This document shows positions 3,402 to 63,877 of a stretch of 64,000 nt of DNA, in pieces. The translations under genes and the position numbers were made by a program. The notes beneath the pieces are model-generated. The model did no database searches. It was not told the origin of the DNA and worked only from the letters and a program-made list of their open reading frames with translations. The stretch's first letter is position 1. Each line of letters opens with the position of its first letter. The stretch comes from a virus (Duplodnaviria; Heunggongvirae; Uroviricota; Caudoviricetes). The DNA lies in the IMG/VR virus record IMGVR_UViG_3300042486_001111. The stretch is one strand, 5' to 3'.

Positions 3402-4262
3402 TTATCTTCTTCTTCTTACTTTAAATGGATTTCCACCTGACTTACTTTGGTACCTATCAAAAATTCTTCTAGACGTTTCTTCGTCACTAGTATTTAAATC
3501 CCATTTATTTTTCCCATCTCTTCCATATTTACTTTTTCTGAATGAATCAAAATCTTCAAACTCATCCTCATCAAAGTCATCATAATCTAATTTACCTGAT
3601 CTATTATTTCTATCCACTTTATATTCATCATCGAATGTACCGTAGTATTCATCGTCATCGTTTACATCCTTATCACTAACTCTGTAATATTTATTCACTC
3701 TTTCTTTTTCTTCAGGTGATAAGTTACCAAAATTTAAATCACCTAAAACTGGATGTCCATCGTCCATACCACCTAATTCACTTAACATAGTTTCATTAGT
3801 TCTTTTTCTATGTACATTAGATATCAATGTATTACCAATTACTCCACCACCTAATGCAGTACCTAAAGCCATTTGTAATACGTCTTCCGCAGAAATACCA
3901 CCTGCCATTGCAATACCACTAACTAAACCAACTAAACTAGTTAAACCTACTGTTGACATTTTTCTCTTCCAATACTCACCTTTACTTATTTTTTTTGGTT
4001 GCGCATCAGTATAATCGGAATATTCATAATCTTCATTCATTGAGTCTAAGTTATCTGATAATTCAGATGCAATTTCTGGATTATTCTGAAATATTGTTAC
4101 TAATTTTTGGAAATCTGGATTATTTTCTATTGACATTCCACTAAAGTCAGTTTCATTGCCTAGTTCTTCAGATGATGATACCCATTCCTCTTCACTTTCT
4201 CTTATTACTCTTTTTACAATTCTATGTAAGTCTGATTCTTTTAATTTTACAATTTTTTTCAT
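3402..4262 (-). CDS. leader family A protein with central Gly-rich hydrophobic segment and acidic C-terminus
   Basis: N-term MKKIVKLKESDLHRIVKRVIRE; glycine-zipper-like stretch GLVSGIAMAGGI...ALGGGVIG. Confidence 0.6.
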   Translation of the reverse strand: MKKIVKLKESDLHRIVKRVIRESEEEWVSSSEELGNETDFSGMSIENNPDFQKLVTIFQNNPEIASELSDNLDSMNEDYEYSDYTDAQPKKISKGEYWKRKMSTVGLTSLVGLVSGIAMAGGISAEDVLQMALGTALGGGVIGNTLISNVHRKRTNETMLSELGGMDDGHPVLGDLNFGNLSPEEKERVNKYYRVSDKDVNDDDEYYGTFDDEYKVDRNNRSGKLDYDDFDEDEFEDFDSFRKSKYGRDGKNKWDLNTSDEETSRRIFDRYQSKSGGNPFKVRRRR

Positions 4263-4315: not shown

Positions 4316-5005
4316 TTATTGATCATACTTTAATTTTATCTCATCTAATAAAATATCCTTTAATTTTAGAATATATTTTCGGAAAACTATTTCTGACTCA
4401 TTCCAGTCTAAACCATAATTATCGTAAAAATAGTTGAATTCTTTATCATTAATTTCTGCAGAAGTCCAATCCTCTATCTCGTAATCAGGATATTTTCCAC
4501 TACCGTCATACATTGGGAATTCTATAATTACATTAATTTCTCTATAATTGGGGCTAAACCCTAATGTGGTACGTTTGATATCGTATTTAGTATCCTTTAA
4601 TAGAAAATCAACTACTTTATCTAAATATATATCTATTTTTTTATCACTACTTTCAGTTATATCCGTTTTTTCTGTTGTATCCACAAAACCGTTTGCATCT
4701 TCGTACCCTAATTTATGTCCCCTATCATTAAGTATCATCTCAACCCAGTCACCATCCCATCCTTCATAATATACCATTACACTTCCTACATTAGGGAAAA
4801 TTTTTCTAACAGTAAAGAAAAAGTATTGGTTTGGTGTAACTATTCCATCTGCGTAGTCAGTCTCAATTTCTGTAGTAGTAACATCACCATATATTTTTTT
4901 AAATATTGCGTCCCAATACTTCTGAGGTACCGCCAAACTCAATAAATCAGAAACATATGGTTTCTTTATTACCTTAGATATTTTATCTATTAATGATTTA
5001 TCCAC
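4316..5005 (-). CDS. hypothetical protein carrying the 'KKPYVSDLLSL..P..W' module
   Basis: Has one copy of the PPY-x-x-DL-x-SLG-x-P-x-x-EW module also present in 12172.., 26428.. and 41044... Confidence 0.5.
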   Translation of the reverse strand: MDKSLIDKISKVIKKPYVSDLLSLAVPQKYWDAIFKKIYGDVTTTEIETDYADGIVTPNQYFFFTVRKIFPNVGSVMVYYEGWDGDWVEMILNDRGHKLGYEDANGFVDTTEKTDITESSDKKIDIYLDKVVDFLLKDTKYDIKRTTLGFSPNYREINVIIEFPMYDGSGKYPDYEIEDWTSAEINDKEFNYFYDNYGLDWNESEIVFRKYILKLKDILLDEIKLKYDQ

Positions 5006-41043: not shown

Positions 41044-43452
41044 ATGGACAAACTTACGAAATTTGAGATAAAAATACTATCCTATTTAGATAAAAAGATT
41101 GATAACACCTCCAATAAGGATCAAGTGTTTAAAATACTTAAAGATGAATTTGGGTTGGATAAATCTGAGGTACTAGATTTATATAGACTTTGGTACTATA
41201 ATAAGGGTACTGGTGATTACGATACAATAGAAGTAGATAGAGAAGGACCTCTTCTCAATTTTTTGAATAATATATCTTTATTAAATTCAAACGTAAATGA
41301 ATATATAGATGAGTTATATGATAACAATCGTGAAAAATTAGACTCTTTAATCGGTGACTGGTTTGTTTTATGTAATAACTACAATACACCCTGTTTAGAC
41401 TTTGGAAATGAGTCAGTGACAATAACTTTAGATAGAGATGAATGGGAAAAATATTTTTCTGGGTTAGGTGATGATGATTTATGGAAATATTATGAGGCAT
41501 TTAGTTCTTATGGTGATTACTATGAAGAAATAGAAACATCAGAGTTTGATTATGTATATACTAATGATGAGACAGTAGAACACTTAGAAACTTTGGCGAT
41601 ACTGTCAGGGTTATCTGAATGGCCTGGTAAAGATGGTAAAAAGATTGGGGAACAAGAAGTTAACGATTTTTTAGGTGAAGTATTACCTAAAGAATATTAC
41701 GAAAGGATAGTTGATGATTATATAGGTGAGATGAGTATTGTCATAACTAGGGCTAGACAAGATAGTGTAAGAAAAACTTATACAAATGAAATTAAATACG
41801 ATACTAATAAAACTAGATGTAGATTCGGTGATTATTGTATAGAAATACCGTATGTTGAATTAATAGAAATAGTAAAAGAAAGGAATCTACTTAATCTTTC
41901 TGAATTAAAAGATGCGGAAATACAACCTGATGTTGATTTGGAGGATGCTTACTACGGTGAGTGGATTGATAGTGATGGTGTAGATGAGGTGGTTACCGAA
42001 CTAAACAGATCATTAAAATCCACAATAGAAAAAATTACTGAATCAGAAGATATTGACTTAGAGGAGTTAATATTAAATAGAAAGTATGTTTTAGATTTAT
42101 TAAATAAATTAGGTTTTAAAAAAATAACAGACACTTCGCAGGGTGAATATTATATGGCTAGAAATGGTATATTAACACTATATAGTAACGATATCGACTT
42201 TAAAAATAATAAAGTTAAATTCACATACGATGATCAAACACATATAACACCCATAGAAGAATTAACTAATTGGGTTTCAGGTAGTGTTTTAGATTTAAAC
42301 GAAAGTGTTAGATACAATAAGAAAGTAAAATTACTAGTAGAAAGTTATAATCTAATCAACAAAATTTCAATATTTGATTTCGATGGTACATTAATGAAGA
42401 CACCACACCCTGAAGAAGGTAAGAAACAGTGGGAGGAATTTACTGGTAAAGAATATCCACATATAGGATGGTGGAGTAAACCAGAGTCTTTAGATGATGC
42501 AGTATTCGACATACAACCTATAGAAAATACTGTTGCAGATTACCTAAGAGAGAAATCTAATCCTAGTACTTTAGTAATAATGTTAACAGGTAGAATACCA
42601 CATCAGTCAGAACAAATAGAAGAATTATTACTATTACATAACATATCTTTTGATGAATATCACTATAAAGGTAATGGCGATACTTTGACTAGTAAATTTA
42701 ATACCATTAAAAGTCTACTGAATAGATTCCCTAATGTTAATCAGATAGAAATGTGGGAAGATAGAGAACCACACGCCATTGAGTTTAAACAGTGGGGAAA
42801 AGAAAATGGAGTAAACTTAAAAGTTAATTTAGTCACTAGTGATGGGCAAATTATAAAAGGTGGTGTAAATGATTTAGTCAACGAGTCTATCGATAAAAAA
42901 AAAATTTTATTCGATAAAATTTCAAAATTAATCAATCCACCTTATTTTTCTGATTTAGAATCTTTAGGTATACCACAATCTGAATGGGATACAATACTTA
43001 GTGTTGTTTTTAGTAAAGAAGTACATTTGGATTTTTACCAACAATTCATTGAAGTTAGGGATAGAAATAATGGTAGACTAACCTATAGGGAATGGCCTAA
43101 CGGTGATTGGGCAGATTTCGATAAAGGTGTTGAGAATTTACAGATTCATACGATGGGTGATATAAACGAATCAGTTACCAATGACTTAATAGATAAAGTA
43201 GTACCCAAATTAGAACCACCTTACATATACAATTTATATTCTATGGGGTTTGACTCAACAGATTCTGAAAAAATACTGTCTAAACTATTTGGTAAAATGG
43301 TTCATATATATGATGACAGTGTATATAATTCTTCCACAAATTCTGTTAGTAAACCAACAGAATCTAGAGTTCAGGATATTGAGACTGACGATGTACTATA
43401 TGTAGAATACTATAAAGGTGACTCTATAGATTGGATAGATTGGAGATACTAA
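41044..43452 (+). CDS. large multidomain protein (802 aa) with central HAD-like hydrolase motif and two C-terminal PPY..DL.S.G modules
   Basis: IFDFDGTLMKT (DxDGT); KISKLINPPYFSDLESLGIPQSEW and VVPKLEPPYIYNLYSMGFDSTDSE. Confidence 0.55.
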   Translation: MDKLTKFEIKILSYLDKKIDNTSNKDQVFKILKDEFGLDKSEVLDLYRLWYYNKGTGDYDTIEVDREGPLLNFLNNISLLNSNVNEYIDELYDNNREKLDSLIGDWFVLCNNYNTPCLDFGNESVTITLDRDEWEKYFSGLGDDDLWKYYEAFSSYGDYYEEIETSEFDYVYTNDETVEHLETLAILSGLSEWPGKDGKKIGEQEVNDFLGEVLPKEYYERIVDDYIGEMSIVITRARQDSVRKTYTNEIKYDTNKTRCRFGDYCIEIPYVELIEIVKERNLLNLSELKDAEIQPDVDLEDAYYGEWIDSDGVDEVVTELNRSLKSTIEKITESEDIDLEELILNRKYVLDLLNKLGFKKITDTSQGEYYMARNGILTLYSNDIDFKNNKVKFTYDDQTHITPIEELTNWVSGSVLDLNESVRYNKKVKLLVESYNLINKISIFDFDGTLMKTPHPEEGKKQWEEFTGKEYPHIGWWSKPESLDDAVFDIQPIENTVADYLREKSNPSTLVIMLTGRIPHQSEQIEELLLLHNISFDEYHYKGNGDTLTSKFNTIKSLLNRFPNVNQIEMWEDREPHAIEFKQWGKENGVNLKVNLVTSDGQIIKGGVNDLVNESIDKKKILFDKISKLINPPYFSDLESLGIPQSEWDTILSVVFSKEVHLDFYQQFIEVRDRNNGRLTYREWPNGDWADFDKGVENLQIHTMGDINESVTNDLIDKVVPKLEPPYIYNLYSMGFDSTDSEKILSKLFGKMVHIYDDSVYNSSTNSVSKPTESRVQDIETDDVLYVEYYKGDSIDWIDWRY

Positions 43453-58258: not shown

Positions 58259-58681
58259 TTATAGACTTATTTCAAATCTGTCTTTCATTATCTGAATTTT
58301 GTCTTCAGGTACACCGTGTTCATTTATACCATTATGTCTGTTCTCTACGATTATTGAAAACACTTTATATTCATATTGTTTCGCCAACTCATAATAACGA
58401 TCCATTTCCCATTCTTGTGTGAAGGTATTCGAAACGGCAATCTCTCTGTAGAAGTTATCATTAACCAACGAATCCTTCATATATGTTTCGACAGTATCCT
58501 GACAAAATTTATGGGCATCTTTGATTTTGGTAAAATCAAAATTATACTCCCCAGTTTCTTTATCGACAAAATATTTGTCTGCCTCACAAACTAAGAAATC
58601 GTCTCCCACTAATCTTTTAGCGAATGTAGATTTACCTGAACCAGGTACACCTCTTACAATATATAAAATTTTTTCACTCAT
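58259..58681 (-). CDS. P-loop polynucleotide 5'-kinase-like protein (T4 Pnk kinase-domain-like)
   Basis: Start set at MSEKILYIVRGVPGSGKSTFAKR; CEADKYF, IAVSNTF and ENRHNGINEHGVPEDKI parallel the T4 Pnk kinase motifs. Confidence 0.55.
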   Translation of the reverse strand: MSEKILYIVRGVPGSGKSTFAKRLVGDDFLVCEADKYFVDKETGEYNFDFTKIKDAHKFCQDTVETYMKDSLVNDNFYREIAVSNTFTQEWEMDRYYELAKQYEYKVFSIIVENRHNGINEHGVPEDKIQIMKDRFEISL

Positions 58682-58860
58682 CGTTTTAAAATTAAATAAC
58701 CTATCACCAAAAAGATAATGAATAATAAGAATGGTATCCACAAAGGACTTGTGATCCACCACCAACTCCAATCAATATGGTTTGTCAATTTTAAAACCAT
58801 AAAAATAAGGAAAAGAACCATCCCGATTCCAATTCCACTAGAACTACTTTCTCTACTCAT
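58678..58860 (-). CDS. small membrane protein (60 aa, Trp-rich TM)
   Basis: GIGMVLFLIFMVL...WWWITSPLWIPFLLFIIFLVIGYLIL; ATGA overlap with the kinase. Confidence 0.4.
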   Translation of the reverse strand: MSRESSSSGIGIGMVLFLIFMVLKLTNHIDWSWWWITSPLWIPFLLFIIFLVIGYLILKR

Positions 58861-58875
58861 ATATATTAATTTAAT

Positions 58876-59532
58876 TTAAATTCTTTTTTCGTGATGATCC
58901 TTTGGTAAGGATAATTTTCTAATAGGTTGGTTTTTAACGATAGATAAAACCTCGTCCAAAGATATTGGGTGTAAGTTGTTACCGTCTACTCCAACATCTA
59001 ATGATTTACCCTCACCCAATCGTAAATTAGGTGGTAAATGTACGTGACCGTGTAAATGAATTACACCGTCATTCATACTATCCCAAGACGCAATTGGATA
59101 GTGCATACACACAAAAGAGTATTTATCCATTTGTCCTTTACCAACAATAGATGGGCGACGAATATCTAAAAACAAATAATCGTGTGTAGAACTGAAGATA
59201 TCCTTTATGTCTTCTTTATTATTACGAATATGGTGATCGTGATTACCATACGTTAAATGAATGTTCTTACAGACAATACGATTACGGAATTCAGAAATTT
59301 TTTCAAACCCACCAAAACTCCAATCGCCTAAATGGACTAACACATCATTTTCACCAACAACTTCATTAATATTATTCACCAATGCATCATTCATCTGACT
59401 AAGAGACTTAAACTTACGAGTTAGATTCTCCGCACCAACCCAAGTTGTAGTCGCAGAACAAATATTAGCGTGATTGTAATGTGTGTCACTTGTAAAAAAT
59501 ATACGTTGACCTTTTTCTAAAACTAATTTCAT
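58876..59532 (-). CDS. calcineurin-like metallophosphoesterase
   Basis: FFTSDTHYNH...LGDWSFGG...GNHDHH...HGHVH. Confidence 0.7.
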   Translation of the reverse strand: MKLVLEKGQRIFFTSDTHYNHANICSATTTWVGAENLTRKFKSLSQMNDALVNNINEVVGENDVLVHLGDWSFGGFEKISEFRNRIVCKNIHLTYGNHDHHIRNNKEDIKDIFSSTHDYLFLDIRRPSIVGKGQMDKYSFVCMHYPIASWDSMNDGVIHLHGHVHLPPNLRLGEGKSLDVGVDGNNLHPISLDEVLSIVKNQPIRKLSLPKDHHEKRI

Positions 59533-59555
59533 ATTGTAAAAGTAATGATTAATTT

Positions 59556-60206
59556 TTAATTATCCAAACAATCAGGTAAAAAAAGTAATGTTGGGTTCTT
59601 TTTTTGTATGTCTACGTCAGGATACTTATCTTTGAACTTCTTTACATCGAACTTTTTTGTGATTAAATGGTGTCCATTTTTAGTTGGTATAATTGCCTCT
59701 ATTTTGGGTCCAACTTCATGTCCAATTGGCATTCCTACCTCGTCAAATTTAACTTTGGTAATTGGATCACATTTATATTCAATAAATGCTATCATCACAG
59801 GACTATAAAGGTGTTCACCATCTACATCTACAATCCATCTCTTCTCCTGTGTTTTAATTTGTCCAACAACAGAATCAAACAAACCTTTCTGATTTGTCAC
59901 ACCGTCTCTAATACGTTCCGCAAGTAATGACAACATATTCAAAGAAACATCATTATGATTTTGTTTCTGAACGTGAATGTATGCCCTAGCCTTAAACATC
60001 TCACATAATTGTTTTACCTCATCGTATCTTCTTTCTAAATGTTCTACCGAATCAATACAATAAGTTTTGATAGTACGAACTGATTGGTGGTTATCTCTTT
60101 CACCTTCTGGTTGATCCTTCTTTCTTTTAAAGACATACAACATATAAAAGTCACCTTTTTCTGTGAAATTTAATAACGGTTTAATTAATTCTATATTATC
60201 TATCAT
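59556..60206 (-). CDS. hypothetical protein (216 aa) inside the RNA-repair gene neighbourhood
   Basis: Intact ORF; ATGA overlap with the RNA ligase gene. Confidence 0.45.
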   Translation of the reverse strand: MIDNIELIKPLLNFTEKGDFYMLYVFKRKKDQPEGERDNHQSVRTIKTYCIDSVEHLERRYDEVKQLCEMFKARAYIHVQKQNHNDVSLNMLSLLAERIRDGVTNQKGLFDSVVGQIKTQEKRWIVDVDGEHLYSPVMIAFIEYKCDPITKVKFDEVGMPIGHEVGPKIEAIIPTKNGHHLITKKFDVKKFKDKYPDVDIQKKNPTLLFLPDCLDN

Positions 60207-61273
60207 AACTTTTTAAATTCTGGTTTAAGTGCCTTCCAAATAATCTTATCATAATCTTTTCCATCCCACATCGCAAACATTATTGCCTTAACGATTGGGT
60301 GTTTATCTTTAATAAATTCCGCAAACTCTTTCTTAGTCGGTTCCACTTCTATGTCACCATATTTACCAAACCTAAAGTAATCATATGTTTTACCTAATTG
60401 ATTCCAGTATTGGTAATACCCATAGTTTAAAGAACTAACATATAATTTAATTTTATTGTAGAATTCATCTGGTACATCTTTTAATAACTCCAACACATCT
60501 TTACCCTCACTTAACATTTCCCATATTGCAGTGGTAGATACGTTAGTCATTATCTTATGTAGACGAAGATACTCCTCACCCTTAACTTTCATCCTATCAC
60601 CGTTAGAGAACTGAACAACGAAACCTTCTTCATCGTCTCCTATCATTCCCTTCAATAATGAATAGTCTTTTATACCATCGTATTGTTTTACTACCTTAAA
60701 ACCAATATTAGTTATTAAATTTTTTAATCTGATATCATTCTCTTCATTACATAAATCAACTTCATAACCAGTTTTAGTTTCTATCATACCCAATAAAACC
60801 AAATCCTCAAATGAGTATTTTACCACAATACGATTCTCATCATATATTATCTCAAACAGATATGTATAATCTTTATGAAGTTTCTCATAGCCATAGTTCT
60901 TCAACATCTCAAACCCTTTAACTGCCTGATCAGAAGTAAAGGAACCTCTAGTCGCCAAAACCCAAACATCATTATAAGAAAATAGAATACCCAAAGAACC
61001 ATCCATCTTTTCGTAGACACTAAATTGTTCTGTAGGTGTATGTCTACCCTCTTCTATGTTAAAGAATTTACGGAATGGTCTTGCCACAATATCCCCATTA
61101 GAGTTTGTAACTAATCCACGACACATTAATGTGATGTCATCCCATAGTCCTTCGTACTGAACCTTTTCAGAATAATTCCAAATATCTAAATCCAATGTCT
61201 GATGGGATTGTCTGTATAACAATCCATCCTCTTCATATTTTTTAAGTATCTCTTTCATATCCTTATTTTTCAA
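60203..61273 (-). CDS. ATP-dependent RNA ligase (covalent nucleotidyltransferase, KxDG)
   Basis: Motif I YEKMDGS, motif IV EEGFVVQF, motif V RMKVKGEEY. Confidence 0.65.
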   Translation of the reverse strand: MKNKDMKEILKKYEEDGLLYRQSHQTLDLDIWNYSEKVQYEGLWDDITLMCRGLVTNSNGDIVARPFRKFFNIEEGRHTPTEQFSVYEKMDGSLGILFSYNDVWVLATRGSFTSDQAVKGFEMLKNYGYEKLHKDYTYLFEIIYDENRIVVKYSFEDLVLLGMIETKTGYEVDLCNEENDIRLKNLITNIGFKVVKQYDGIKDYSLLKGMIGDDEEGFVVQFSNGDRMKVKGEEYLRLHKIMTNVSTTAIWEMLSEGKDVLELLKDVPDEFYNKIKLYVSSLNYGYYQYWNQLGKTYDYFRFGKYGDIEVEPTKKEFAEFIKDKHPIVKAIMFAMWDGKDYDKIIWKALKPEFKKL

Positions 61274-61997
61274 ATGTTGGTTTTAACCACATATCCCCAC
61301 CAAACATAATGTCCAAAATTTTAGGGTTAACTGTTTTTATTCTAGAAAACAATTCCAAAGACTTTAACGTATCGTGTTTTAACATCTTTAAAAGTTCTTC
61401 TCTGATTCTTTCCTTTGATACTACCAGCTCTAATTTATCTACAACACTATCCATTAAACAAGTCTCCCAAATCGTAGGTGATATCTCAAAACCTTTGGTG
61501 ATTGAGAATCTAAATGCCCTAATCAATCTTAATGGATCATCTAACATAGTTACTCTTGCATCTAATGGAGTTAACAGTAGTTTATTTTCTAATGCCCAAA
61601 TACCATCGAACAAATCTATAATTGCACCGTTCTCATCTTTCGCCAATGCGTTCAACGTAAAGTCTCTACGAACCAAATCATCTTCCAACCTACCCAATTC
61701 TAAAATAGGTTTTCTTGTACCTTCAACATATCCCACCTCTTTTCTTGCGAGAACAAAATCTGCAACCAAACCATAATGGAAGTGATCTTTAGGGAACTTT
61801 GCCCTAATAGTAAAACAGTCGGGTGTACTTAAGAAAATAGTAAATTCCTTATGTAATAGCCAATCAGTCATTATTTGGAATCCCTCCTCTACGGTTCGAT
61901 TCAAATTGTCTAAGACAAATGTAAAATCGATGTCGTTTGTTTCCACACCCATCAATTCATCTCTAACACAACCACCTACTTCATATATTTTTGGCAT
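61263..61997 (-). CDS. cca: tRNA nucleotidyltransferase (CCA-adding enzyme), class II head domain
   Basis: Start set at MPKIYEVGGCVRDELMG...DIDF; RRDFTLNALA; DPLRLIRAFRFS. The longer ORF (to 62021) is less likely. Confidence 0.8.
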   Translation of the reverse strand: MPKIYEVGGCVRDELMGVETNDIDFTFVLDNLNRTVEEGFQIMTDWLLHKEFTIFLSTPDCFTIRAKFPKDHFHYGLVADFVLARKEVGYVEGTRKPILELGRLEDDLVRRDFTLNALAKDENGAIIDLFDGIWALENKLLLTPLDARVTMLDDPLRLIRAFRFSITKGFEISPTIWETCLMDSVVDKLELVVSKERIREELLKMLKHDTLKSLELFSRIKTVNPKILDIMFGGDMWLKPTFEK

Positions 61998-61999
61998 AA

Positions 62000-62236
62000 T
62001 TAAAAATTTACATTTACACATTCCTCACCATTCCAATCGGCAGTAACTCTATCCCATATACCCTCAGTATCTCTATAAATTATATCCATTCCAACAATAC
62101 TTTCACCAATTACTTCCCTTATCTCAGTTAGGACATTTTCAAAGTTATTCGTCACCGACATAAAATTACCATACCACTCATCAACAATCTTTAATTCATT
62201 ACCATCAATGGTGAAACTATAGTTTGACTTTCTCAT
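62000..62236 (-). CDS. hypothetical protein (78 aa)
   Basis: Intact ORF. Confidence 0.4.
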   Translation of the reverse strand: MRKSNYSFTIDGNELKIVDEWYGNFMSVTNNFENVLTEIREVIGESIVGMDIIYRDTEGIWDRVTADWNGEECVNVNF

Positions 62237-62274: not shown

Positions 62275-62306
62275 ATATAAACAAAAAAAAGGTGATTAAA
62301 AATCAC
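62275..62306 (-). terminator. intrinsic terminator (aggtga...tcacct hairpin + T8 on minus strand)
   Basis: aaaaaaaaggtgattaaaaatcacct. Confidence 0.5.
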
Positions 62307-62520
62307 CTTATATCGAAATTATTTAGTTTCTTCTTTCTTTTTGGTTTTCCTCACCTTTTTTTCCTTAACTTCCTCTATCTCATCATTAGGTATTTCTATT
62401 AATGCGTATTCAGGAAAAAACTGATTCATACCGATACCCACACAAACTTCTACAAATTTTTTGTTATTACTCATTTTTTTATTTTTATTTTTTGTTATCA
62501 GGTTAATACTTTATTTTTAG

Positions 62521-62598
62521 TAGTCAGGGTAGGATTCGAACCTACAATGAGCAACCTTTTTACGGGATTCGGCACCGCGCCTCATTACACTCCTGACT
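62521..62598 (-). tRNA. aberrant tRNA-like element (canonical acceptor stem and T-arm; non-canonical D/anticodon region; anticodon unassigned)
   Basis: Minus strand reads AGTCAGG-AG-TGTAATGAGGCGCGGTGCCGAATCCCGTAAAAAGGTTGCTCATT-GTAGG-TTCGAAT-CCTAC-CCTGACT-A. No standard cloverleaf; contains a 6-bp AATGAG/CTCATT stem enclosing 29 nt. Confidence 0.35.
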
Positions 62599-62754
62599 AA
62601 ATTATGATGATAGTGTTGGGATACCCATCTCGTCCCAATCTTAACTGCTTAACCCTAGTTTTACGATGCATCGGCAGGGGGTGCTGAATTCCGAATCCAT
62701 TCTGAATTGTCGACATCCGTTGAATGGGGAAAACCACTATCATTATCTTACTAT

Positions 62755-62828
62755 GTGGTCCCTGTTGGGATCGAACCAACCACCTACTGATTATGAGTCA
62801 GTTGCTCTAACCGAATGAGCTAAGGGAC
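62755..62828 (-). tRNA. tRNA-Met (CAT) (elongator or Ile2-lysidine type)
   Basis: GGTCCCT-TA-GCTC-ATTCGGTTA-GAGC-A-ACTGA-CTCATAA-TCAGT-AGGTG-GTTGG-TTCGATC-CCAAC-AGGGACC-A folded by hand; 74 nt. Confidence 0.8.
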
Positions 62829-62908
62829 CTAATGGGTAGAATCAGACGCGTTCTGTCTACCGAGACCTTGTCGTTAACTTTCGTCAGAGCGGAACAAGAC
62901 ACTATTAG

Positions 62909-62982
62909 TGATCCCGAATGGATTCGAACCATTGACCTACTGCTTAGAAGGCAGTTGCTCTATCCAGCTGAGCTACGGGACC
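62909..62982 (-). tRNA. tRNA-Arg (TCT)
   Basis: GGTCCCG-TA-GCTC-AGCTGGATA-GAGC-A-ACTGC-CTTCTAA-GCAGT-AGGTC-AATGG-TTCGAAT-CCATT-CGGGATC-A; 74 nt. Confidence 0.8.
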
Positions 62983-63153
62983 AATTTTAAAAGATGATGA
63001 ATGACTTTATCAGGAATCTCGCCTTCGACTTCACACACCATTAGAGAGTCGGGAATTACGACAATACAATTAAGAATGTCAACCTATCCTTAGTGTGTAC
63101 CCTTGCGTCACGTCTCTCCACGCTTATCATTCTACGCTTTGTATCACCTTTTG

Positions 63154-63238
63154 TAGTCGGGGCGGGAATCGAACCCGCACGGACGCAATGTCCATTGGAT
63201 TTTAAGTCCAACGTGTCTACCTATTCCACCACCCGACC
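63154..63238 (-). tRNA. tRNA-Leu (TAA), type II with long variable arm
   Basis: GGTCGGG-TG-GTG-GAATAGGTAGA-CAC-G-TTGGA-CTTAAAA-TCCAA-TGGACATTGCGTCCGT-GCGGG-TTCGATT-CCCGC-CCCGACT-A; 85 nt. Confidence 0.75.
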
Positions 63239-63273
63239 AAAAGTATTAACCAATAAATTAAAGAACATTCTAG

Positions 63274-63345
63274 TACTGCCACGGGGAATCGAACCCCGCT
63301 TTTATGGATGAAAACCATAGGTCCTAACCGATAGACGATGGCAGC
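63274..63345 (-). tRNA. tRNA-Glu (TTC)
   Basis: GCTGCCA-TC-GTCT-ATCGGTTA-GGAC-C-TATGG-TTTTCAT-CCATA-AAAG-CGGGG-TTCGATT-CCCCG-TGGCAGT-A; 72 nt. Confidence 0.75.
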
Positions 63346-63351
63346 GGTTTG

Positions 63352-63426
63352 CGGTGCGTATGGGATTCGAACCCATGACCTCTGCCGTGACAGGGCAGCA
63401 TTCTAACCAGGCTAAACTAACGCACC
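63352..63426 (-). tRNA. tRNA-Asp (GTC)
   Basis: GGTGCGT-TA-GTTT-AGCCTGGTTA-GAAT-G-CTGCC-CTGTCAC-GGCAG-AGGTC-ATGGG-TTCGAAT-CCCAT-ACGCACC-G; 75 nt; 6 nt from tRNA-Glu. Confidence 0.8.
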
Positions 63427-63877
63427 ATACCCCCTTTATTAACCCCATTCTGATTATCTTTATACTACAATCAGACGTTACTAATGTAGTCCTTATCGTA
63501 TTGTCTGACACCACTATCATATTACCCTAGTGACTTAGGCATCCACAGTGAGGAGTTAGGGGGACTAGTATTATAAAACCAACAGGACTATCAAACACCT
63601 TTACTCCGTAGTCTTAGTATTTTATCGACTTTAAGAGATCTGTACTCGATTCTTTTCGATTAGACTTTTAATCCTTATCGATTATACCTTTCCTCCCAGA
63701 CTTCGTATTCTTTGCGCAAACCTATCCGAAGTTCAAAGGGTCAGGTCCTTTAGTGATGAAAAATTAGTCATCTTATTTGATAGAACACTGTTGGTTTAAA
63801 TATGTTTCAAAGAACGCTTTCTTTTTTTCTTTTACAATTATAACTACTATTTTTTAAAAAAACAATAGATATGACAA

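What the first reader, a model, noticed from the sequence alone, without database searches (positions are those of the whole stretch)
62521..62598. tRNA-like element with perfect acceptor stem and T-arm but no standard D/anticodon arms
The minus strand gives AGTCAGG...GTAGG-TTCGAAT-CCTAC-CCTGACT-A. That is a 7-bp acceptor stem, a canonical T-stem and loop (GTTCGAATC) and a discriminator A.
The 46 nt in between cannot be folded into D and anticodon arms. Instead a 6-bp stem (AATGAG/CTCATT) encloses 29 nt that include a second T-loop-like GCCGAATCC.
It lies first in the transcription order of the tRNA array, separated from tRNA-Met by a 155-nt spacer that has its own hairpin (ttgggat..11 nt..tcccaa).
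It could be a tRNA with a short insertion, a pseudo-tRNA, a tRNA-mimic decoy for anticodon nucleases, or a processing/regulatory element.
Basis: seen in the sequence. Interest (0 to 1): 0.55.

Follow-up and report, generated by a model that had tools for sequence, protein, structure and literature searches.

The report
Conserved anticodon-less tRNA-like phage RNA
The 78-base element is a real gene for a small RNA that keeps the top half of a tRNA but has no anticodon loop; it belongs to a widespread family in uncultured phage tRNA clusters that is absent from Rfam 15, and its function is still unknown.

Summary
The sequence features are real: on the minus strand, 62598..62521 has a 7-bp acceptor stem, a canonical T arm and discriminator A, but no cloverleaf. 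ARAGORN misses it and the Rfam tRNA model scores 23.7 bits against a threshold of 29.

It is not a sequencing error or a decaying pseudogene. I held 168 viral, metagenomic and MAG loci with the same core. A covariance model built without the window finds the element at 84.3 bits (E 2e-22).

Compensatory changes support five helices: acceptor, T arm, a long-range D-stem-like helix P2 (A8-U49 to G11.U46), hairpin H2 with an invariant GG loop, and a short hairpin P3. P3 ends in a loop of 5-14 nt (short forms) or carries a ~40-nt arm (long forms), so there is no anticodon loop.

The element is last, not first, in the array.

Family members sit inside tRNA arrays, 4-12 nt from real tRNAs. I infer that they are matured like tRNAs and act as non-decoding tRNA mimics, but the target is unknown.

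The acceptor and T arm look derived from tRNA-Leu. Close relatives of this phage swap this slot among other tRNA-like RNAs. The nearest precedent is T4 rnaC.

The parts
62521..62598 (-). Whole tRNA-like RNA gene, 78 nt. RNA position n corresponds to window coordinate 62599-n.
   Evidence: Sequence. Covariance model R1, built without the window: 84.3 bits, E 2.4e-22, model positions 1-81 of 81.
62592..62598 (-). Acceptor stem 5' strand, AGUCAGG (positions 1-7).
   Evidence: Perfect 7-bp complement to 62522-62528. All six modelled acceptor pairs change on both sides across 74 distinct sequences.
62521..62528 (-). Acceptor stem 3' strand CCUGACU (positions 71-77) plus discriminator A78. No CCA is encoded.
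   Evidence: The discriminator is not conserved in the family: A 53, G 14, C 11, U 9.
62588..62591 (-). P2 5' strand, A8 G9 U10 G11. A D-stem-like, long-range helix.
   Evidence: Pairs with 62550-62553. Pair 10-47 occurs as CG 76, UG 22, UA 14 and never CA. Pairs 9-48 and 11-46 are canonical in 112 of 112 sequences. RNAalifold predicts this helix independently. 97.7% of cells are paired on the MAFFT alignment.
62567..62585 (-). Hairpin H2 (positions 14-32). Pairs: A14-U32, U15-A31, tandem G16.A30 and A17.G29, G18-C28, G19-C27, C20-G26, G21.U25. Loop C22 G23 G24 with invariant GG. It contains the invariant UAAUGAGG and the conserved CCRARUCC.
   Evidence: Pair 20-26 occurs as CG 26, GC 22, AU 17. 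The tandem G.A pairs become Watson-Crick pairs in the L107/L066 variants. G23 and G24 are invariant.
62555..62566 (-). P3 mini-hairpin: C33 C34 pair with G43 G44 and close the loop CGUAAAAA. This is the site where long forms carry a ~40-nt arm.
   Evidence: CC and GG are invariant, so there is no covariation. Loop length is 5-14 nt in short forms; the arm is ~40 nt in the 115-121-nt long forms.
62550..62553 (-). P2 3' strand, U46 G47 C48 U49. It is followed by a 4-nt variable-loop-like linker, C50-U53 (62546-62549).
62529..62545 (-). T arm: GUAGG-UUCGAAU-CCUAC (positions 54-70).
   Evidence: Four of five T-stem pairs change on both sides. This is the only part, besides the acceptor stem, that the Rfam tRNA model aligns.
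62755..63426 (-). Upstream tRNA array on the same strand: Asp(gtc), Glu(ttc), Leu(taa), Arg(tct), Met(cat).
   Evidence: ARAGORN and Rfam. tRNA-Leu(taa) is the second-best hit of the family model at 31.9 bits. Its 3' end is the copy most similar to the element's 3' end, at 81%.
62599..62754 (-). 156-nt spacer between tRNA-Met and the element, with the hairpin at 62616-62638.
   Evidence: Fold z-score -0.19, not distinguishable from shuffles.
62289..62474 (-). Downstream 51-aa ORF (62319-62474) and terminator-like hairpin (62289-62309), which probably ends the transcription unit.
   Evidence: The ORF is conserved in relative L003.
58259..62021 (-). Downstream RNA-maintenance genes: a CCA-adding/poly(A)-polymerase-family enzyme, a T4 Rnl1-family RNA ligase, a 216-aa and a 218-aa ORF without Pfam matches, and an AAA_33 P-loop kinase.
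   Evidence: Pfam PF01743, PF09511 and PF13671. These are context only. No link to the RNA has been shown.

Best explanation
The element is a functional gene for a non-decoding tRNA-like small RNA. It is the short form of a conserved phage RNA family, which I call family A.

Shown:
- The RNA has a tRNA 'top half', meaning a 7-bp acceptor stem stacked on a canonical T arm, and a non-tRNA body.
- In the body, a D-stem-like helix P2 closes a three-way junction. The junction carries hairpin H2, whose loop has an invariant GG, and a short hairpin P3.
- P3 ends in a loop of variable length or in a ~40-nt arm, so there is no anticodon loop.
- The family lives inside phage tRNA arrays, on the tRNA strand and at tRNA-like spacing.

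Inferred:
- It is co-transcribed with the five tRNAs.
- RNase P cuts its 5' end and the tRNA 3'-processing enzymes trim its 3' end.
- It receives CCA from the host enzyme or from the phage's own CCA-adding enzyme.
- It folds into an L shape in which the H2 loop GG contacts the T loop, as G18 and G19 do in tRNA.
- It then acts in trans as a tRNA mimic. It would occupy or divert a protein that reads the acceptor, T-arm and elbow half of tRNA. A host tRNA-directed defence enzyme or a 3'-end-modifying enzyme is my leading guess. It takes no part in decoding.

The acceptor and T arm appear to derive from a duplicated phage tRNA-Leu. My confidence is about 0.85 for 'conserved structured tRNA-like RNA gene' and about 0.25 for the decoy mechanism. 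The single figure given is a blend of the two.
For: Family membership:
- Model R1, built without the window, scores the element 84.3 bits (E 2.4e-22). The next hit is the window's tRNA-Leu at 31.9 bits.
- Family members score 50 bits or more. Other tRNA-like genes and true tRNAs score 45 bits or less.

Breadth:
- 26 IMG/VR contigs carry the exact 18-mer GTCAGGAGTGTAATGAGG.
- 168 of the loci I held carry the core.
- One ~90% identical relative has the identical 78 nt.

Structure:
- On a MAFFT alignment of 32 sequences, 91% of cells are paired and 12 pairs change on both sides. None of 500 shuffles reaches the observed score, and the slid controls collapse to 26-44% paired.
- On 74 distinct metagenomic sequences, every modelled acceptor pair, four of five T pairs, one H2 pair (CG 26, GC 22, AU 17) and one P2 pair (CG 58, UG 10, UA 6) change on both sides.
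- RNAalifold predicts the same helices.

No anticodon:
- The P3 loop is 5-14 nt with no fixed sequence, or it is replaced by an arm.

Context:
- Members lie on the same strand as true tRNAs, with spacers as short as 4-12 nt.
- None of the window's tRNAs, nor the element, encodes CCA. A CCA-adding-family enzyme lies about 500 nt downstream.

tRNA-Leu ancestry:
- The acceptor stem differs from the window's tRNA-Leu(taa) by A1 and one compensated pair.
- The closest 3'-end copy in the array is tRNA-Leu.
- The only similarity in deposited phage genomes is to the 3' ends of tRNA genes, most of them tRNA-Leu.

Accessory character:
- The same slot holds a different 154-nt tRNA-like RNA in a relative whose flanks are 94% identical.
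- The element sits among four extra tRNA-like RNAs in a ~90% identical relative.
Against: - I had no expression, end-mapping or CCA data, so processing and stability are inferred from position and shape.
- No target is known. No protein family is consistently encoded next to the RNA: the largest cluster covers 21 of 168 loci.
- Single-sequence folding is not exceptional (z = -1.32).
- P3 and the GG-to-T-loop contact rest on invariant bases, so covariation cannot confirm them.
- The CM-derived alignment leans towards the model's structure, and many sequences are closely related.
Confidence: 0.6

Rival explanations
1. It is a decaying pseudogene of a duplicated tRNA-Leu with no function.
For: The acceptor and T arm resemble tRNA-Leu. 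The cloverleaf is broken. The slot turns over quickly between relatives.
Against: The core is conserved in 168 loci. Compensatory changes occur in five helices, and the 9-nt motif UAAUGAGG and the GG loop are conserved. A pseudogene would not keep P2 and H2 paired across acceptor stems as different as AAUCGAC, GCAAAGG and GGGGGAG.
Confidence: 0.05
2. It is a structurally aberrant but decoding tRNA-Leu(UAA). Relaxed ARAGORN suggests this.
For: ARAGORN at 80% threshold, and in metazoan-mitochondrial mode, calls it tRNA-Leu(taa). The loop CGUAAAAA resembles the CUUAAAA anticodon loop of the neighbouring tRNA-Leu.
Against: The forced fold needs G at position 33, a mismatched anticodon stem and a D stem (G11-C27, U12.G26, A13-U25). 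The H2 covariation contradicts that D stem. Homologous loops are 5-14 nt (UUUAA, UAUAU, UACAU and others) or are replaced by a 40-nt arm. A normal tRNA-Leu(taa) is already present in the array.
Confidence: 0.04
3. It is a cis-acting punctuation element. The minihelix exists only so that RNase P and 3'-end nucleases separate the tRNA transcript from the downstream mRNA, or define that mRNA's 5' end.
For: In the window it is the last RNA gene and ends 46 nt before the start codon of a small ORF, inside one apparent transcription unit. tRNA-like punctuation is known elsewhere, for example in mitochondria and for mascRNA (my own knowledge).
Against: In other contigs the RNA lies between tRNAs, 4-12 nt from each neighbour, or far from any ORF. 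In the ~90% identical relative it is 2.5 kb and two further tRNA-like genes away from the same ORF. A processing signal would not need the conserved P2, H2 and UAAUGAGG core.
Confidence: 0.1
4. It is an aminoacylated, probably leucylated, non-decoding tRNA-like RNA. It would donate or sequester an amino acid, or titrate LeuRS or EF-Tu.
For: In E. coli, tRNA-Leu identity rests on A73 and the D-loop/T-loop tertiary contacts, not on the anticodon or variable arm. Minimal tRNA-Leu molecules lacking both arms are still leucylated (review PMC9976931). The window element has A73, a tRNA-Leu-like acceptor and T arm, and a GG loop.
Against: The discriminator is not conserved in the family: A 53, G 14, C 11, U 9. 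The acceptor stem covaries freely. The D region lacks the canonical U8:A14 and A15:U48 geometry (A8 is paired in P2).
Confidence: 0.08
5. It is a DNA-level feature: a phage attachment site that copies a host tRNA 3' half, or a tRNA-derived mobile repeat.
For: The 3' 25-mer is shared by many unrelated tRNA-like genes. A degenerate copy of the 3' end plus trailer lies 26 nt downstream (repeat D4).
Against: Both halves of the acceptor stem are present and covary as RNA helices. There are many copies per genome, in arrays. The Pfam scans of neighbouring ORFs found no integrase.
Confidence: 0.02

Closest known systems
Phage T4 rnaC and rnaD (species 1 and species 2 small stable RNAs)
   Same: They are small non-tRNA RNA genes at the distal end of a phage tRNA cluster, on the tRNA strand. 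The record annotates them only as small stable RNAs and assigns no function. rnaC ends in a canonical T arm, CCGGG-UUCGAAU-CCCGG, followed by an acceptor-like 3' strand.
   Different: There is no detectable homology: model R1 does not hit rnaC or rnaD. They are 139 and 119 nt long with different bodies. rnaC's acceptor pairing is imperfect.
Canonical class II tRNA-Leu and the engineered 'minimal tRNA-Leu'
   Same: The acceptor stem, T arm and A73 are close to the array's tRNA-Leu(taa). Like minimal tRNA-Leu, it lacks a functional anticodon arm and a long variable arm.
   Different: The D stem closes a three-way junction instead of a D loop. There is no 7-nt anticodon loop and no U33. It scores below the Rfam and ARAGORN thresholds. 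Across the family the discriminator is not fixed.
tRNA-like domain of tmRNA
   Same: An acceptor stem plus T arm, with a non-tRNA body inserted where the anticodon arm would be.
   Different: There is no G3.U70 alanine identity pair (U3-A70 here), no tag reading frame and no pseudoknots. ARAGORN's tmRNA search finds nothing. It is 78 nt against roughly 350 nt.
Bacterial and phage Y-RNA-like YrlA (Rfam RF02553)
   Same: A non-coding RNA with a tRNA-like module (T arm and D-like GG). From my own knowledge, YrlA is often found near RNA-repair genes and sometimes in phage tRNA arrays.
   Different: In YrlA the 5' and 3' ends form a Ro-binding helix, not a free acceptor end. There is no YrlA match in the window. 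One weak 33-bit match (gathering score 69) straddles a family member and the next tRNA in L189.
Engineered 'tRNA scaffold' for recombinant RNA (Ponchon and Dardel; PMC3753655)
   Same: The acceptor, D and T parts are kept and the anticodon arm is replaced by another RNA. From my own knowledge, the chimera is processed and stabilised like a tRNA. The paper surfaced and I did not read it.
   Different: That scaffold is artificial. Here the arrangement is natural and conserved, and in family A the D region is also remodelled.

Membership tests
Canonical tRNA (Rfam RF00005 / ARAGORN) | 7-bp acceptor stem, discriminator, and 5-bp T stem with a GTTCRANYC loop | tested here: met
   Sequence. These are the only parts that the Rfam tRNA model aligns.
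Canonical tRNA (Rfam RF00005 / ARAGORN) | D arm: a 3-4-bp stem closing a 7-11-nt loop at positions 10-25 | tested here: not met
   The D stem forced by relaxed ARAGORN (G11-C27, U12.G26, A13-U25) is contradicted by the covarying H2 pairs. The D-stem-like P2 pairs with a strand 35 nt away.
Canonical tRNA (Rfam RF00005 / ARAGORN) | Anticodon arm: a 5-bp stem and a 7-nt loop with U33 | tested here: not met
   The candidate loop is 8 nt here with G in the U33 position. In homologues it is 5-14 nt or is replaced by a ~40-nt arm.
Canonical tRNA (Rfam RF00005 / ARAGORN) | Score above the curated thresholds | tested here: not met
   Rfam 23.7 bits against a gathering score of 29. ARAGORN finds nothing in default or intron mode.
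Family A tRNA-like RNA (defined here) | Full-length match to covariance model R1, built from 27 members without the window | tested here: met
   84.3 bits, E 2.4e-22, model positions 1-81 of 81. There is a score gap to non-members, which reach at most 45 bits.
Family A tRNA-like RNA (defined here) | Core motifs GUAAUGAGG, an H2 hairpin with a GG loop, CCRARUCC, GGUURC, and the P2 pairing that flanks them | tested here: met
   All are present at RNA positions 11-48. The P2 pairs are canonical.
Family A tRNA-like RNA (defined here) | Location inside a phage tRNA array, on the tRNA strand | tested here: met
tmRNA | G3.U70 pair, a tag-peptide reading frame with a resume codon, and pseudoknots | tested here: not met
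   U3-A70. ARAGORN finds no tmRNA. The only permuted-tmRNA match in the region (13.3 bits, gathering score 47) lies in tRNA-Leu, not in the element.
YrlA / bacterial Y RNA (RF02553) | Ro-binding terminal helix plus a tRNA-like module; Rfam gathering score 69 | tested here: not met
   No match in the window at E up to 10. The flanks are not conserved, and neighbouring genes lie 4-12 nt away.
T4 rnaC-type stable RNA | Sequence or structure homology to T4 species 1 RNA | tested here: not met
   R1 finds only tRNA-Arg in the T4 region, at 23 bits. The resemblance is positional and in the T arm only.
T4 rnaC-type stable RNA | Accumulates as a stable, processed small RNA | not testable with these tools
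   No expression data were available.
Leucine-accepting tRNA-like RNA | A73 plus D-loop/T-loop tertiary contacts sufficient for LeuRS (PMC9976931) | tested here: inconclusive
   The window element has A73 and a GG loop. The family's discriminator varies: A 53, G 14, C 11, U 9. Charging cannot be tested here.

The most novel reading that the evidence does not exclude
Family A may be the most conserved member of a natural 'tRNA scaffold' system. Uncultured phages, most of them from freshwater samples, keep a near-constant tRNA-Leu-derived chassis: acceptor AGUCAGG/CCUGACU-A, usually the D arm GGCGGAAUUGGUAGACGC, and the T arm ACAGG-UUCGAAUCC-UGU. Between these parts they insert structured bodies of about 30-120 nt.

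In the loci I held there are 312 unique chassis elements. Of these, 195 are neither callable tRNAs nor family A. Their 164 longer bodies fall into 138 clusters. There are up to six copies per contig, and the set differs between phages that are 90-96% identical.

If this reading is right, phages use tRNA processing and stability to deploy a fast-evolving arsenal of decoy, aptamer or antisense RNAs, plausibly in conflicts over tRNA and translation. That would be a new class of phage non-coding RNA.
Probability: 0.3. Interest if true: 0.85.

Novelty: new variant of a known kind. Interest (0 to 1): 0.62.

Why it matters
Phage tRNA clusters are usually explained by codon usage or by escape from anticodon nucleases. 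T4's two extra stable RNAs in its tRNA cluster still carry no function in the genome record.

This element shows that a well-conserved, covariation-supported RNA without an anticodon is a common passenger of phage tRNA arrays. It has a fold not represented in Rfam 15. It also sits in a locus that is swapped among many other tRNA-scaffolded RNAs.

That gives a defined family, with a model and more than 100 sequences, on which to test three questions:
- Do phages use tRNA mimics as decoys or cofactors?
- How little of a tRNA do RNase P, the CCA-adding enzyme and LeuRS need in nature?
- Do standard tRNA finders systematically miss these genes?

Tried and rejected
1. Standard cloverleaf. Default and intron-aware ARAGORN find nothing. 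Relaxed and mitochondrial modes force a tRNA-Leu(taa) whose D stem and anticodon loop are contradicted by homologues.

2. It is 88% paired among close relatives but shows no compensation. Over 112 sequences it is 76% paired, and the outer pair forms in 44 of 112. In 62 sequences only 2-3 nt separate C48 from the T stem. It may still be an alternative conformer in the window's lineage; the energies are similar.

3. A second T loop at GCCGAAUCC. Its 5' half is paired in H2.

4. Intron or insertion. The ~40-nt arm of the long forms sits in the P3 loop, and removing it does not give a tRNA.

5. Known RNA families. Rfam 15 gives nothing above threshold in the window or in four family loci. The tmRNA, YrlA and T4 rnaC comparisons are all negative.

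6. Deposited phage genomes. blastn with three family variants finds only tRNA 3' ends. The nearest CCA-enzyme relatives in isolates are below 47% identical.

7. A linked protein partner. Clustering 1,529 neighbouring ORFs from 168 loci gives no family present in more than 21 loci.

8. A structured spacer. The fold z-score is -0.19.

9. Literature. Five full-text searches found no description of this RNA. The T4 genome review was not available.

10. The genome-contig scan was mostly chance matches. Only two of the first 120 were real.
Full report
**What is in the sequence**

So are the AAUGAG/CUCAUU complement and the spacer hairpin at 62638..62616.

ARAGORN finds five tRNAs on the same strand but not this element: Asp 63426-63351, Glu, Leu(taa), Arg, Met 62829-62755. 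The Rfam tRNA model aligns only the acceptor and T arm and scores 23.7 bits against a gathering score of 29.

One statement is wrong. Because everything is on the minus strand, the element is the last RNA gene of the array, not the first. After it come a 51-aa ORF and a terminator-like hairpin at 62309-62289. Further downstream lie a CCA-adding-family enzyme, a T4 Rnl1-family RNA ligase and a P-loop kinase. An 802-aa protein with a 'Swiss Army Knife RNA repair' HAD domain lies 20 kb away.

**It is a member of a conserved family**

The 3' 25-mer recurs in 11 other IMG/VR contigs. The 5' 18-mer GTCAGGAGTGTAATGAGG recurs in 26. Extracting these gives a family with two forms:
- short forms of 74-86 nt, which include the window;
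- long forms of 115-121 nt, with an irregular hairpin arm of about 40 nt inserted at one point.

Looser patterns add divergent members. Two more members lie in MAG or genome contigs. One is on a 118-kb contig binned with a Lake Mendota Chitinophagaceae MAG. In all, 168 of the loci I held carry the core.

A covariance model built from 27 members without the window finds the window element at 84.3 bits, E 2.4e-22, over its full length. The next hit is the array's tRNA-Leu(taa) at 31.9 bits. Family members score 50 bits or more, and everything else scores 45 or less.

Contig L535 is about 90% identical to the window over the flanks and carries the identical 78 nt. Sequencing error and recent decay are therefore excluded.

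**Structure**

RNAalifold on a MAFFT alignment of 32 viral sequences predicts the following helices:
- the acceptor stem;
- a helix between the 4-5 nt just 5' of UAAUGAGG and the nucleotides just 3' of GGU (P2);
- a hairpin H2;
- a 2-bp closure P3;
- the T arm.

In window numbering:
- P2 is A8-U49, G9-C48, U10.G47, G11.U46.
- H2 is A14-U32, U15-A31, tandem G16.A30 and A17.G29, G18-C28, G19-C27, C20-G26, G21.U25, with loop C22 G23 G24.
- P3 is C33-G44 and C34-G43, closing CGUAAAAA.
- C50-U53 links P2 to the T stem.

On that alignment the model is 91% paired, with 12 pairs changed on both sides. None of 500 shuffles reaches the observed score, and the slid controls fall to 26-44% paired.

An anchor-based count over 112 unique sequences gives P2 pairs 9-48 and 11-46 as canonical in 112 of 112. 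Pair 10-47 occurs as CG 76, UG 22, UA 14 and never CA.

On 74 distinct metagenomic sequences aligned to the model, all six modelled acceptor pairs change on both sides. So do four of five T-stem pairs, H2 pair 20-26 (CG 26, GC 22, AU 17) and P2 pair 10-47. That alignment is fitted to the model, so it leans towards it.

Acceptor stems as different as AAUCGAC/GUCGAUU, GCAAAGG/CCUUUGU and GGGGGAG/CUCUCCC carry the same core. The tandem G.A pairs in H2 become Watson-Crick pairs in the L107/L066 variants.

UAAUGAGG, the GG of the H2 loop, and the CC and GG of P3 are conserved throughout. G13, G23, G24 and the P3 bases are strictly invariant. P3 therefore has no covariation to confirm it. The proposed contact between the GG loop and the T loop is inference by analogy with G18 and G19 of tRNA.

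The 6-bp stem competes with P2 and H2 for the same bases. It is perfect in the window's sub-lineage, but its 3' strand drifts elsewhere (CUUAU, CAAAUU, CUUCCCC, CUACUCC and others) opposite an invariant 5' strand. It is 76% paired overall, and the outer pair forms in 44 of 112 sequences. In 62 sequences only 2-3 nt lie between C48 and the T stem.

The stem may exist as an alternative conformer here, but it is not the conserved fold.

GCCGAAUCC is the conserved CCRARUCC. Its 5' half is paired in H2, so it is not a T loop.

**No anticodon**

The only hairpin that could stand in for an anticodon arm is P3. Its loop is 5-14 nt with no fixed sequence, or it carries the long arm, whose own terminal loop is an 8-mer of variable sequence.

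Relaxed ARAGORN (80% threshold, or metazoan-mitochondrial mode) forces a 'tRNA-Leu(taa)'. That fold has G in the U33 position, a mismatched stem and a D stem that the covariation contradicts. The RNA cannot be a decoder.

**Origin**

The acceptor stem is two steps from the window's tRNA-Leu(taa): A1 instead of G1, and one compensated pair (A5-U68 for G5-C68). The tRNA-Leu 3' end is the closest copy in the array. tRNA-Leu is the second-best hit of the family model. The only similarity in 50,697 deposited phage genomes is to the 3' ends of tRNA genes, most of them tRNA-Leu. Family members often lie next to a tRNA-Leu(taa). I infer a duplicated and remodelled phage tRNA-Leu as the source.

**Context and likely mechanism**

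Members lie inside tRNA arrays on the tRNA strand, sometimes only 4-12 nt from real tRNAs (L207, L198, L178, L193). No member, and none of the window's tRNAs, encodes CCA.

From established knowledge, an acceptor/T-arm minihelix suffices for RNase P, for 3' trimming and for CCA addition. I therefore infer that the RNA is excised and tailed like its neighbours and accumulates as a stable L-shaped mimic.

No protein family is consistently encoded nearby: the largest cluster covers 21 of 168 loci. The partner is probably a host factor or a phage protein encoded elsewhere.

The slot turns over quickly. L003, whose flanks are 94% identical, has a 154-nt tRNA-like RNA of another type there. L535 has the same 78-mer among four additional tRNA-like RNAs. 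That pattern is typical of accessory genes involved in conflict with the host.

The phage also invests in tRNA and RNA maintenance. Together these points make a tRNA 'top-half' decoy or cofactor my leading mechanism, at low confidence (about 0.25).

Leucylation is conceivable for the window's copy. It has A73, and minimal tRNA-Leu molecules without anticodon or variable arms are still charged (PMC9976931). But the discriminator varies in the family. A pure punctuation role does not fit the positions seen in other arrays.

**Comparison with known RNAs**

The closest precedent is T4 rnaC/rnaD. These are stable small RNAs, with no function given in the record, that lie last in the T4 tRNA cluster. 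rnaC ends in a T arm, but it is not homologous.

The tmRNA tRNA-like domain, YrlA and engineered tRNA scaffolds share the idea of a tRNA top half with a foreign body. Each fails its defining features here (see the membership table).

Rfam 15 has no family for this RNA. Five full-text searches found no description.

**Wider observation**

The same acceptor and T arm, usually with a tRNA-Leu-type D arm, frames hundreds of other non-tRNA bodies in these phages. I found 312 unique elements. Of these, 195 are neither family A nor callable tRNAs. Their 164 longer bodies fall into 138 clusters, some of which show compensatory changes. There are up to six copies per contig. Family A may be one conserved module of a larger natural tRNA-scaffold repertoire.

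**Verdict**

This is a real, conserved, structured, non-decoding tRNA-like RNA gene. It is a new variant of a known kind, namely phage tRNA-cluster stable RNAs and tRNA mimics. Its function is unproven.

Noticed in passing
Loci L054-L182, e.g. L077 284-3472 (6 copies), L111 11541-13101, L133 12357-13875, L059 7044-8345: There is a much larger set of tRNA-like genes with a near-constant chassis: AGTCAGG, TG, GCGGAATTGGTAGACGC, a body, ACAGGTTCGAATCCTGT, CCTGACTA. The 30-120-nt bodies are unrelated to one another. ARAGORN does not of 228 motif hits as tRNA. Among 312 unique elements, 164 longer bodies fall into 138 clusters, and some clusters show compensatory changes.
   Followed up: partly
L003 3494-3647 (also L001 1417-1570 and L002 143-296): In a relative whose flanks are 94% identical, the slot just upstream of the 51-aa ORF holds a 154-nt chassis-type tRNA-like RNA instead of the 78-mer. 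A degenerate tRNA-like sequence lies at L003 3366-3435.
   Followed up: partly
L535 (reverse strand) 1961-2059, 2521-2593, 2690-2767, 3847-3972, 4390-4474: A ~90% identical relative carries the identical 78-nt element among four further tRNA-like genes with the same or a near-identical acceptor stem (99, 73, 126 and 85 nt). It also has an extra tRNA-Met and another tRNA-like gene further up the array.
   Followed up: partly
window 41044-43449 (+) and 58259-62021 (-): The phage has an RNA-maintenance gene set: an 802-aa protein with a HAD_SAK_1 'Swiss Army Knife RNA repair' domain, a CCA-adding-family enzyme, a T4 Rnl1-family ligase, an AAA_33 kinase, and two ORFs of 216 and 218 aa without Pfam matches.
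   Followed up: partly
window 63430-63850 (-): About 400 nt upstream of tRNA-Asp contain no substantial ORF. This stretch and tRNA-Asp are absent from relative L003, where the conserved upstream region runs straight into tRNA-Glu. It could hold further non-coding RNA.
   Followed up: no
window 62484-62505 and 62510-62531: A 22-nt direct repeat (82% identity) duplicates the element's 3' acceptor strand plus trailer 26 nt downstream. It may be a scar of recombination between adjacent tRNA-like genes (repeat D4).
   Followed up: no
window 62604-62615 / 62735-62746, and 62596-62618 / 63509-63531: The ends of the Met-to-element spacer are complementary (ATGATGATAGTG / CACTATCATTAT). A related ATGATAGTGGT motif recurs upstream of tRNA-Asp. 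The significance is unknown, and the spacer fold is not exceptional.
   Followed up: no
L062 6140-6211 (-): A regular-looking tRNA with anticodon UUA, which ARAGORN calls 'tRNA-Stop(tta)' (an ochre-suppressor type), uses exactly the same acceptor stem and T arm as the window element.
   Followed up: no
L404 (reverse strand) about 1550-1630: A family A member with a different acceptor stem (GGGCAUA/UAUGCCC) lies outside any tRNA array, in a stretch of densely packed small ORFs that looks phage-like by eye. The stop codon of the upstream 310-aa ORF falls inside the conserved GCGUAAUG motif.
   Followed up: partly
window 62755-62829, 62908-62982, 63273-63345 (+): The sub-threshold Rfam 'Plastid-ycf2 5'UTR' matches are just the antisense strands of tRNA genes, so they are an artefact of that model.
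   Followed up: yes
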